A DNA stretch of 62,984 nucleotides from Carcharhinus longimanus (Eukaryota). Made by a program: the position numbers and the translations under genes. How positions within the stretch are numbered: position 1 is the stretch's first letter; each line of letters begins with the position of its first letter. Below, piece by piece: positions 47,290-62,984 of this stretch. The stretch is taken from the NCBI GenBank assembly GCA_030264375.1, contig JASCQW010000061.1, forward strand, positions 60,977,406 through 61,040,389, in the 5' to 3' direction. Below the pieces are notes generated by a model. It did not search any database. It was not told the DNA's origin and saw nothing but the letters and a program-made list of their open reading frames with translations.

Positions 47290-47471
47290 GATAAGTAGTC
47301 TCACAACACCAGAATAAAGTCCAACAGGTTTATTTGGTAGCACAAGCTTTCGGTGATGAAGGGGCAATGCTCCAAAAGCTTGTGCTAACAAATAAACCTG
47401 TGGGACTTTAACCTGGTGTGGTGAGACTACTTATTGCGCCTACCCCAGTCCAACGCCGGCAACTCCACATC
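47290..47471 (+). mobile_element. Fold-back Penelope-like mini-element with central degenerate hammerhead motif and probable TSD
   Basis: Arms 47291-47353 and 47372-47434 are inverted. The centre reads gTGATGA a ggggc aat gctcc aAAA gc tt gtg. Flanks are atgcaaataat (47279-47289) and atacaaataat (47472-47482). Confidence 0.82.
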
Positions 47472-48019
47472 ATACAAATAATATGCAAATTCATTTTGAC
47501 AAGTGCAATGAGTTTAAAATCAAAAATACTCACTGACTGATGTCCAATTTAAATAATTACTTTGAATATTTTTAGAACTTCAGGGCAGGGAAACACTTAC
47601 AGCTTCCCTGCTTTACCTGTGGTAATATGACCATGCTATGACTTTATTACTGATGAATCATACTGTGTCTGCCAGCTATTAATTCTCCTTACAATCTTAT
47701 ATAACAAGAATATAAATTCATGACCTTGCTGAAGGGCAATTCTCTACAAAATAAGTATTTTTGCATTGTTGCCATCACGCATTTTCTGCAGAAATTGTAT
47801 GCAGTGTTGTCCTAAATAGGGAAAACTCCTCATCACCTGAAAGATTATGGTCTGGATTTTGCAATTTTAATAATGGTGAAGCTGTCAGCATTTGACATCA
47901 TTTCCCTTCTGAAATTGACAGCTGAAAAGTCCGCACAATTGAACATAGAAGTTCAGATGATTCTATGCTTCTCCAGAGGCATTCAAGCTCCAGAATTCAG
48001 AACGTGAGCAGCAGCTGAC

Positions 48020-59254: not shown

Positions 59255-59535
59255 AGTCACTTGCTTTTGGAGATGGAAATGAAGAGAATATTTTTCTCTC
59301 CAGGAGTCATGAGTCTCTGGAACTCTCTCCCTCAAAAGTCAATGGAATCTGAGTTTTTGAATATTTGTAAGGCAGAGATTTTTGATAACCAGGGGAGGAG
59401 CAGGAAAAAAAGGTTTCCTGGGATAGGTAAGAATGTGGAGTTGAAATTTCAATCAGGTCAGCCATGATCTCATTGAATGGTGGAGTGGGCTGAAAGGGCC
59501 AAGTGGCTTATTCCCACTCCTAATTCATATATCTG
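59255..59535 (+). mobile_element. CR1 3' end
   Basis: EMKRIFFSPGVMSLWNSLPQK plus tail attgaatggtggagtgggctgaaagggcc. Confidence 0.82.
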
Positions 59536-61124: not shown

Positions 61125-61365
61125 ATAAGGGGAGATCTCATTGAGACGTATAAGATGATGAATGGGATGGATAGGATAGAGGTGGAGAGACTCNNNNNNN
61201 NNNNNNNNNNNNNNNNNNNNNNNNNNNNNNNNNNNNNNNNNNNNNNNNNNNNNNNNNNNNNNNNNNNNNNNNNNNNNNNNNNNNNNNNNNNNNTATTGAA
61301 TGGCGGGGCAGGCTCGAAGGGCTAGTTGGCCTACTCCTGCTCCTATTTCTTATGTTCTTATGTTC
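61125..61365 (+). mobile_element. Young CR1 3' fragment spanning a gap
   Basis: aggggagatctcattgagacgtataagatgatg (RGDLIETYKM) plus the young family tail. Confidence 0.88.
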
Positions 61366-61593
61366 AAAGTAAATGCAATAATGTGAAATATATGGAACTG
61401 AGGTACAAATCAACCAAGATCTAACTGAATGCCCCAGTGGGATTGAGGGGCTCAAAGTCTTGTTCCAATATAATCGTAGTTAAGTTCATTTAACCAACAC
61501 TTATATTTCGGCAAAAAAAAATGCCTAATTTGTAACATAGCAGGATATATATTTACCAAAAATGATAATAATTAGAGAGCTCACAGAAGAATC

Positions 61594-62247
61594 AAGAAGG
61601 TGGAGATGCCAGCATTGGACTGGAGTGGGCACAGTCAGAAGTTTCACAACACCAGGTTAATGTCCAACAGATTAATTTGGAATCATGAGTTTTTGGAGCA
61701 CTGCTCCTTCATTAGGTGAGTGGAGGCATATATAAACAAAGACACAATTGCAAGGATATTGAGATTGGAATGTGAAGAATGGTTGGAATGCGAGTCTTTA
61801 TATATAATCAAGTCTTAACAGGTACAAATAGTGTGCGTGGAGAGAGGGATAATTACAGATTAAAGAGTTGTGAATTGTCTCAAGCCAGGACAGTTCATAG
61901 GATTTTGCAAAACCAGGCAGTGTGCTGGGGGTTACAAGTAGTGTGACATGAACCCAAGATTCCAGTTGAGGCTGTCCTCATGCATGAGGAACTTGGCTAT
62001 CAGTTTCTGCTTGGCGATTCTGCTTTTTGCTGTTGGTATCTGTAAAGACATGATTGCCTGTAAAGGCTTGCATTCCAACCATTTTTCACATTCCAATCTA
62101 TAATTATCTTGCAATTATATCTTTGTTTATACTTGCTGTGTTTGTGAACTAACCTCCACTCACCTGATGAAGGAGAACAGCATTCCGAAAGCTCATGGTT
62201 CCAAATCAACCTGTTGAACTTCAACCTGGTGTTGTGAGATTTCTTAC
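61594..62247 (-). mobile_element. 5'-truncated Penelope-like element: GIY-YIG C-terminus, 3' pLTR and inverted 5' pLTR, with TSD
   Basis: Minus 62023-61932 encodes SRIAKQKLIAKFLMHEDSLNWNLGFMSHYL*. Arms 61634-61825 and 62036-62247 are inverted. The direct repeat acagaagaatc sits at 61583-61593 and 62246-62256. Confidence 0.88.
62161..62197 (+). ncRNA. Minimal type I hammerhead ribozyme motif (putative)
   Basis: cac CUGAUGA a ggag aacagca uucc GAAA GC UC aug. The core boxes are intact, stem III is the palindrome AGCU, and the triplet is CUC. The closing pair of stem I is a C:A mismatch. Confidence 0.65.
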
Positions 62248-62907
62248 AGAAGAATCTAGGGTTGAGCTAAAGTTCTTCACAAGCTATCCCTTTATCTAAA
62301 CAGAATTTTCAATGACTCTTCATTAGTGTTTCCAATTCTCAGTGTTGCATATCAATTTCTCAAAATACATAGCTTTAATTCTCTGGAACATATCAAAGTT
62401 TGCCAATCGCTCAGGCTTTAGGAATGATGAGTTTGTTTTTTCCTAATTAAACCACAATAAGATTGAGCATAAGCTTTAGAATGTCTTGAAATAACTTAAT
62501 TTCCAGTGCATCTGTTTTTAACAAATTCACTTGTCATCATTTCACATTTCCTACTGCGGGCTTATCTCATATTTAACATCTTCCAAAGGAAACAAATCAT
62601 ATACTTATTTTCAAACTGTTTTCACACAGCATTTGTTGAGTTGCATATTGACTGCCTAATCAGACATATTTGCAGACTCATTTGAATTGTTTCAGGTTTA
62701 GATAGACACAGTCAGGCAAGTTTTTTAAAAATTATTTCATGGGATGTGGCATCACTTCTCAACATATTTGGCTTGAGGGCAGAATAAAAAAAATGCTTCA
62801 TTATGTCTGACCAAATTTCTCAATGGTTTTCCAGCAAGGAGGGCCTGAATAATTGGAGAGCAAGTGCTACAGAATTACAAGCTTGCATCTTCTTTATATG
62901 TTCTCTT

Positions 62908-62984
62908 GGTTACAGATAGTGTGACATGAACCCAAGATCCCAGTTGAGGCCGTCCTCATGTGTGCGGAACTTGGCTATCAGTCT
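62908..62984 (-). mobile_element. Second Penelope-like GIY-YIG C-terminus (continues beyond the window)
   Basis: 62984-62910 reads RLIAKFRTHEDGLNWDLGFMSHYL*. Confidence 0.85.

What the first reader, a model, noticed from the sequence alone, without database searches (positions are those of the whole stretch)
61583..62256. TSD-flanked Penelope-like element with back-to-back hammerhead-bearing inverted pLTRs
Seen in the sequence: an 11-bp direct repeat (acagaagaatc) brackets ~190-210-bp inverted arms that enclose the last 30 codons of an endonuclease-like ORF. Each arm carries a hammerhead motif. The plus copy (62161-62197) has intact CUGAUGA/GAAA boxes; the minus copy (61684-61718) is mutated to CUaAUGA/aAAAa. 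Established: 5'-truncated PLEs often have an inverted pLTR, and PLE pLTRs carry minimal type I hammerheads with a palindromic stem III thought to work as dimers. Inference: this is one complete insertion of a shark PLE family, and read-through RNA would form a long hairpin with a self-cleavage motif. The class is known, but I cannot tell whether this family has been described.
Basis: partly seen in the sequence, partly recalled or inferred. Interest (0 to 1): 0.7.

Follow-up and report, generated by a model that had tools for sequence, protein, structure and literature searches.

The report
Old two-armed shark Penelope retroelement insertion
This is an old, cut-short copy of a common Penelope-like jumping gene in a shark-like genome, laid down in the known mirror-image layout; its two self-cutting RNA motifs are damaged and likely dead, and the ends of its sister copies suggest the element was likely copied from both sides of the DNA cut.

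Summary
The structure is real but ordinary for its class. A 5'-truncated Penelope-like element (minus strand, about 61597-62026: last 30 codons of a GIY-YIG ORF, pLTR, 37-nt tail) is joined head-to-head to an inverted, tail-less pLTR piece (62030-62247), between target-site duplications. The family has thousands of candidate copies here, an RT + CX4CxxC + GIY-YIG ORF (Neptune type) and shark relatives. The layout is published (PMC3846280, PMC8557442), and this scan noted it before in other genomes (75 notes, at least 15 genomes). The arms differ by 17%, and the junction is shared by related organisms with up to about 9% flank difference. Both hammerheads are damaged. In a read-through RNA only one is sense, and it is predicted to be buried in the hairpin, so local self-cleavage is unlikely. 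Family counts add mechanism: 55 of 58 scored pairs have one tailed and one tail-less end, 39 of 58 have duplications, and the tail-less arm reaches further in 19 of 39. This favours priming from both cut strands. Arm 5' ends cluster at a TATA/Inr-like start, not at the hammerhead cut site.

The parts
61583..61593 (+). Left target-site duplication (exact 11-mer; in register it extends to about 61596 with one mismatch)
61597..61633 (-). 37-nt tail, the long (L) 3' end, present on this arm only; in full-length copies it runs directly into the ORF's ATG
61634..61931 (-). 3' untranslated region / pLTR of the element body; 61634-61831 is the part mirrored by the other arm; about 17 nt are missing between the TATA-like box and the Inr-like site
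61683..61719 (-). Damaged minimal type I hammerhead (G5, G12, G15.2 and G1.1 read A)
61932..62026 (-). Last 30 codons and stop of the RT-GIY-YIG ORF; 5' truncation point near 62026
62027..62029 (.). Head-to-head junction, a few unassigned or overlapping letters
62030..62247 (+). Inverted pLTR piece ending at the short (S) 3' end, no tail
62155..62160 (+). Inr-like TCCACT; its A (62158) is the predicted transcription start, about 30 nt after a TATA-like box that is damaged in this copy
   Evidence: sequence; family 5'-end cluster; Inr/TATA consensus recalled, and TATA + TCACT described for rotifer pLTRs in PMC3846280
62160..62198 (+). Minimal type I hammerhead with intact boxes, predicted cut after C62194; first stem I pair broken (C.A)
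62246..62256 (+). Right target-site duplication; its first two letters overlap the S end

Best explanation
This is a decayed, 5'-truncated insertion of a Neptune-type Penelope-like retrotransposon with an inverted second arm, a one-sided tail and a target-site duplication, likely made by reverse transcription primed from both ends of a staggered cut. Shown: family identity, ORF link, arm layout, end types, duplication, and damage to both hammerheads. Inferred steps: (1) the GIY-YIG endonuclease nicks both strands about 10-15 nt apart, leaving 3' overhangs; (2) one 3'-OH primes RT at the long site (tail end, at the ORF's ATG), the other at the short site 37 nt upstream; (3) each cDNA stops at random or runs off the RNA 5' end at the Inr-like start just before the hammerhead; (4) the two cDNAs are joined head-to-head and filled in. 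The copy has since decayed, likely neutrally, and likely has no ribozyme activity.
For: Family and ORF: (5357, 6276 and 2683 first-look candidates, 40 scored each). RT: Pfam RVT_1 E 5e-9 for shark relative P0002. Endonuclease: 18 of 24 aligned members hit Pfam GIY-YIG; the profile hits T4 EndoII and I-TevI; the top fold match is I-TevI, prob 0.98, E 0.07. End rule: 55 of 58 scored pairs are L+S against about 50% expected, p 1e-13; all 39 pairs with a duplication are L+S. The S arm reaches more than 20 nt further 5' in 19 of 39, the L arm in 7, and 13 are within 20 nt. In those 19, neither arm can be a fold-back copy of the other. Arms share a subfamily in 20 of 22 testable pairs. 5' ends: 38 of 116 truncated arms start at -12..-4 from C3, 27 of 97 after removing query-selected arms, against 5 of 97 around the hammerhead cut site. 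In vitro, an anole PLE cuts and extends both strands, starts RT at two sites that bound the tail, and needs no hammerhead cleavage (PMC11167929, parts 1-2 of 4 read).
Against: Loci are the best hits of a few queries, not a random sample, and 16 of 74 pairs were dropped for an unscorable end. 19 of 58 pairs show no clear duplication; 2 are L+L and 1 is S+S. 115 of 263 ends had no inverted partner within the fetched locus, so twin priming is not shown for every insertion. In this very copy the tailed arm is the longer one, so fold-back cannot be excluded locally. No empty site was found. The shark L055 domain itself has no Pfam hit and no fold hit at E<=0.001. The transcription start is inferred from motifs and cDNA ends, not from RNA. 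Cut geometry and dimer action are untested.
Confidence: 0.7

Rival explanations
1. Same element, but the inverted arm arises by fold-back or self-priming: one cDNA, or an antisense template as proposed in PMC3846280, snaps back and copies itself, and the endonuclease trims the tail from one end.
For: It gives the same layout when the tailed arm is the longer one, as here (400 vs 218 nt). Published as an interpretation of palindromic junctions (passages). Arms usually share a subfamily (20 of 22).
Against: In 19 of 39 duplication-bearing pairs the tail-less arm extends further than the tailed arm, so neither can be templated by the other. The anole enzyme extends both target strands from sense RNA. 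An antisense-template version is not excluded by these counts.
Confidence: 0.15
2. The insertion was kept because a read-through RNA uses it, as a long double-stranded hairpin (editing or small-RNA source) or as a self-cleaving element.
For: Predicted hairpin z -18. The junction is present in related organisms with up to about 9% flank difference.
Against: The arms are 17% diverged, more than the 12% mean of sister pairs. Both hammerheads are mutated, and the sense one is predicted to be buried in the duplex. Thousands of similar copies exist, and persistence is expected for a fixed neutral insertion. No host gene was identified in the window (long ORFs only).
Confidence: 0.05
3. Two independent insertions, or a later rearrangement, brought a body and an inverted pLTR together, and the 11-mer is coincidence.
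For: The family is very abundant, with two further copies in this window. The arms differ by 17%.
Against: The repeat sits exactly at both element ends. Mismatched pairs reach such a score in 10 of 348 cases. The L+S pattern and the near-zero junction gap match the family rule.
Confidence: 0.03

Closest known systems
Pen2a_Av / Pen2_Av insertions of Adineta vaga (PMC3846280, passages read)
   Same: Inverted pLTR, tail on one end only (31 bp there), TSD (8-10 bp there), TATA box plus TCACT Inr-like site in the pLTR
   Different: Here the tail is 37 nt and ends at the ATG rather than inside the ORF; duplications are mostly 10-17 nt; the ORF has the CX4CxxC linker; shark host; this copy keeps only 30 codons
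Neptune-clade EN+ Penelope-like elements (PMC8557442, passages read)
   Same: [quoted passage not shown]
   Different: No tree was built, so Neptune versus Nematis is not formally settled; duplications were 65% AT and no (TA)n target was evident in the 39 printed
PAc, Poseidon element of Anolis carolinensis (PMC11167929, parts 1-2 of 4 read)
   Same: Two RT start sites bounding the tail; both target strands cut and extended; hammerhead cleavage not needed; no RNA ends at the cut site
   Different: In PAc the ORF starts at hammerhead stem II and the RT starts lie over 100 nt inside the ORF; here both lie before the ATG, with the long one at it. The paper's text as read does not derive the inverted two-arm product
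Minimal type I hammerheads of metazoan PLEs (PMC4209133, parts 1-2 of 4 read)
   Same: CUGANGA, extra base after A9, G10.1-C11.1, palindromic 15.2-16.2, short stem I; pairs on opposite strands 100-700 bp apart were already noted
   Different: Both local copies are damaged; cleavage was not tested
LINE-1 twin priming (recalled; PMC2837659 seen only in the search listing)
   Same: Both target ends prime cDNA, giving an inversion flanked by a TSD
   Different: In L1 the second primer lands at a variable internal site and the pieces do not overlap; here both start at fixed sites 37 nt apart and duplicate the same pLTR

Membership tests
EN+ Penelope-like element | Single ORF with RT followed by a C-terminal GIY-YIG endonuclease | tested here: met
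   RT in family copies and P0002; GIY-YIG by members, profile and fold; the window holds its last 30 codons. Pieced together from several broken copies; no intact copy was seen
EN+ Penelope-like element | [quoted passage not shown] | tested here: met
   VYLIRCRKGCPEAWYIGET...H...H in L055, L034 and P0002
EN+ Penelope-like element | pLTR present both upstream and downstream of the ORF | tested here: met
   pLTR + tail run into the ATG in 9 of 24 loci examined; the same pLTR follows the stop
EN+ Penelope-like element | 30-40 bp tail at one end; inverted 5'-truncated copy | tested here: met
   37-nt tail on the left arm only; 55 of 58 pairs L+S
EN+ Penelope-like element | Target-site duplication proven by an empty site | tested here: inconclusive
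   Duplication present and enriched over control; 5 of 7 runs laid cover a flank and all 5 run into the element end
Neptune clade | CX2-5CxxC linker before the endonuclease | tested here: met
   CHSNLCKTC / CHSNLCKKC; the paper assigns this motif to Neptune and Nematis
Neptune clade | RT phylogeny groups with named Neptune elements | not tested
   No named reference set was at hand; no tree built
Minimal type I hammerhead ribozyme | Core boxes plus stems I and II and a palindromic stem III, at family level | tested here: met
   81 of 188 arms keep the boxes and 22 keep all features; non-CpG variation in the boxes falls on N7 and H17; 12 of 80 distant loci carry the motif against 0.05 hits per shuffle
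Minimal type I hammerhead ribozyme | Intact core and stems in this copy | tested here: not met
   Minus copy: core mutated. Plus copy: first stem I pair C.A, and the motif does not fold alone (z +1.17) or in context
Minimal type I hammerhead ribozyme | Self-cleavage as a dimer or with the element's protein | not testable with these tools
   Needs a bench assay
Non-LTR retrozyme | Tandem head-to-tail units, each with a complete hammerhead, non-coding | tested here: not met
   Arms are inverted and an ORF remnant is present; definition from bioRxiv 10.64898/2026.07.22.740005, part 1 of 5 read

The most novel reading that the evidence does not exclude
This family's fossil insertions record a fixed, asymmetric twin-priming reaction. 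One RNP, perhaps a dimer, cuts a 10-15-nt stagger and always starts one cDNA at the ORF's ATG and the other 37 nt upstream. The many 90-130-nt arms are complete copies of the uncut 5' leader, from a TATA/Inr start through the hammerhead. This would explain the inverted pLTR and one-sided tail of Penelope elements without fold-back, and would show in vivo that the templates used are not hammerhead-cleaved.
Probability: 0.5. Interest if true: 0.55.

Novelty: new member of a known kind. Interest (0 to 1): 0.22.

Why it matters
The copy itself matters little: it is one decayed stub among thousands, in a published layout. The family counts bear on an open question, how Penelope-like elements make inverted ends and one-sided tails. 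They give testable numbers: one long and one short end per two-armed insertion, duplications of about 10-17 nt, and cDNA ends at the likely transcription start rather than the ribozyme cut site. Five paper searches (open-access library only) listed no paper that describes this shark family or states the twin-priming rule. Repbase, Dfam, subscription journals and the papers' supplements were not seen, and the family may well be catalogued there.

Tried and rejected
Rfam scan: no hammerhead family at E<=10, only two chance snoRNA hits. Pfam on single shark endonuclease pieces: no hit (table A); membership rests on relatives and the profile. PDB sequence search with P0002: nothing below E 0.4. 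Search for an empty site: 7 of the 23 listed runs were laid; X15 and X19 gave no contig along the flanks, the other five ran into the element end. No RNA holder listed. A 5'-end peak at the hammerhead cut site was sought and not found (5 of 97). 'Core more conserved than flanks' fails inside the genome: core columns 0.92-0.99 apart from N7, CpG-G12 and H17, against 0.85-1.0 downstream; neutral decay predicts this. Arm-to-arm distance (mean 0.120) was only slightly below arm-to-other-locus distance (0.146), so one shared RNA template could not be shown. Retrozyme, MITE or DNA-transposon readings were rejected because of the ORF remnant, unequal arms and tail. No host gene was identified (long ORFs only; not a gene search).

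Full report
Observation. The direct repeat, the inverted arms, the 30-codon ORF end and both hammerhead-like motifs are at the stated places. The arms are 61634-61831 and 62030-62247, with 34 mismatches in 198 paired columns and 20 gap columns. The right copy of the 11-mer begins with the last two letters of the arm, and the repeat extends to 14 nt with one mismatch. Rfam reports no hammerhead here. The left arm alone carries 37 extra letters (61597-61633), the tail.

What it is. The right arm finds 5357 first-look candidates in the own genome, 40 scored, the best at 83-87% identity. Walking upstream through sister copies gave an RT, a CHSNLCKTC linker and a VYLIRCRKGCPEAWYIGET endonuclease whose end matches the window's 30 codons. 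The closest named proteins, at 72-89% identity, are from Mustelus, Heptranchias, Scyliorhinus and Chiloscyllium, so the host is shark-like. RT support: Pfam RVT_1, E 5e-9 for P0002. Endonuclease support: 18 of 24 aligned members hit Pfam GIY-YIG, though not the shark one listed first; the profile hits T4 EndoII and I-TevI; the model (pLDDT 80.8) ranks I-TevI first at prob 0.98, E 0.07. In 9 of 24 loci at the 5' end, the pLTR and tail run straight into ATG GCT/ACT ACC, so the tail is the 37 nt before the start codon. These are the marks of a Neptune-type EN+ Penelope-like element (PMC8557442, passages); no tree was built.

Age. The arms differ by 17%, against a mean of 12% for 28 sister pairs. 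Contigs of five runs from four coded organisms (D, E, F, G) follow the right flank with 6/446 to 59/655 other letters and end 14-23 nt or more inside the element. One run also crosses the left junction. The insertion is therefore old and shared. No empty site was seen in 7 runs laid of 23 listed, two of which had no contig along the flanks.

Family rules. I scanned 174 genomic loci plus the window's last 2984 nt with a profile of 24 natural pLTR ends. The loci are the best hits of six queries, not a random sample; seven repeat loci were removed. Of 263 3' ends, 127 are tailed (L), 114 tail-less (S) and 22 unscorable. 148 ends form 74 head-to-head pairs, 16 of which were dropped for an unscorable end. 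Of the 58 left, 55 are L+S, 2 L+L and 1 S+S (p 1e-13 against independence). Duplications scoring >=8 flank 39 of 58, against 10 of 348 mismatched controls, and all 39 are L+S. Matched lengths are 10-17 nt, and the S-to-L register has median 13. The S arm reaches over 20 nt further 5' in 19 of 39, the L arm in 7 (this copy among them), and 13 are level; several long pairs had unassigned middles, so their reaches are lower bounds. The arms share a subfamily in 20 of 22 testable pairs.

5' ends. Of 116 arms truncated inside the pLTR and away from a locus edge, 38 begin 12 to 4 nt before C3 of CUGANGA, the mode being the A of TCCACT. Without the arms selected by the query, it is 27 of 97 (27 of 92 within -100..+70, p 1e-13), against 5 of 97 around the predicted cut site. 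A TATA-like box lies about 30 nt upstream (consensus recalled, and the same pair of motifs is described for rotifer pLTRs in PMC3846280). I read this as cDNA running off the capped 5' end of uncut RNA; this is inference, as no RNA run was listed.

Hammerheads. The family motif is a minimal type I hammerhead as defined in PMC4209133 (parts 1-2 of 4 read). Within the genome the core is no more conserved than the downstream flank, but non-CpG variation in the boxes falls on the tolerant N7 and H17. In 80 distant PLE loci from metagenomes the motif occurs 12 times, 11 on the coding strand, with wholly different stems, against 0.05 hits per shuffled set; the motif is thus likely under selection in active elements. 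Of 188 arms, 81 keep the boxes and 22 keep all features; neither window copy does. The minus copy has lost G5, G12, G15.2 and G1.1. The plus copy has a C.A mismatch next to the cut site and does not fold as a hammerhead alone. A read-through RNA is predicted to form a hairpin of -312 kcal/mol, in which the sense hammerhead is 89% paired to the other arm and stem II has probability 0.0. The two motifs, on opposite strands, cannot form the dimer in one molecule.

Mechanism. For this layout, the top strand reads duplication then cDNA from L, and the bottom strand reads duplication then cDNA from S. That is what a staggered cut with 3' overhangs gives if both ends prime RT (inference). Fold-back of one cDNA gives the same picture only when the tailed arm is the longer one, and fails for 19 of 39 pairs. 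The anole Poseidon enzyme cuts and extends both strands, starts RT at two sites that bound the tail, is predicted to be a dimer, and does not need hammerhead cleavage (PMC11167929, parts 1-2 of 4). Against: sampling bias, 19 pairs without a clear duplication, 115 ends without an inverted partner in the locus, and no bench test. An antisense-template version of self-priming (PMC3846280) is not excluded.

Comparison and novelty. Inverted pLTR, one-sided tail, TSD and TATA/Inr are described for Adineta elements and generalised in PMC8557442; opposite-strand hammerhead pairs 100-700 bp apart are in PMC4209133. This scan holds 75 notes with these words in at least 15 genomes, several proposing priming from both cut ends and one a fixed stop point; I reached my reading before seeing them, and they are not independent support. 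Five paper searches listed no description of this shark family; Repbase, Dfam, subscription papers and supplements were not seen. Verdict: a real, old, ordinary member of a known kind; interest 0.22, mostly for the family-level mechanistic counts.

Noticed in passing
window 47292-47475: A second, smaller head-to-head insertion of the same family: S arm on the minus strand, tailed arm on the plus strand starting at the hammerhead core, and an apparent 11-nt duplication with one mismatch.
   Followed up: partly
window 62908-62984: A third copy, the ORF end on the minus strand, 91% identical to 61930-62004, runs off the end of the window and has no pLTR after its stop. Its extent was not determined.
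   Followed up: partly
L021:1154-1713: This copy matches the window across the head-to-head junction (61806-62246, 80%), so it has nearly the same two truncation points; possibly a second junction hotspot.
   Followed up: no
P0005, P0008, P0009, P0010, P0012: Shark gene models named NOXP20-like, septin 5a, XRCC5, PPP1R12A-like and USP8 contain pieces of this element's endonuclease; likely annotation artefacts or exonised copies.
   Followed up: no
L184-L203, pLTR-ORF junctions; pLTR just upstream of the hammerhead: At least three subfamilies differ by a short indel after the hammerhead, and one (as in the window) has ACTAAC, a branch-point-like word (recalled), before the Inr-like site. In D. 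virilis an intron ends at hammerhead helix I. Not tested.
   Followed up: no
L250 (minus strand, about 970): A metagenome contig with a 60%-identical RT carries an inverted pLTR hammerhead almost like the shark one.
   Followed up: no
window 61295-61365 and 59472-59530: Ends of another very high-copy repeat lie beside the element; RT-like LINE fragments are scattered through the window.
   Followed up: no
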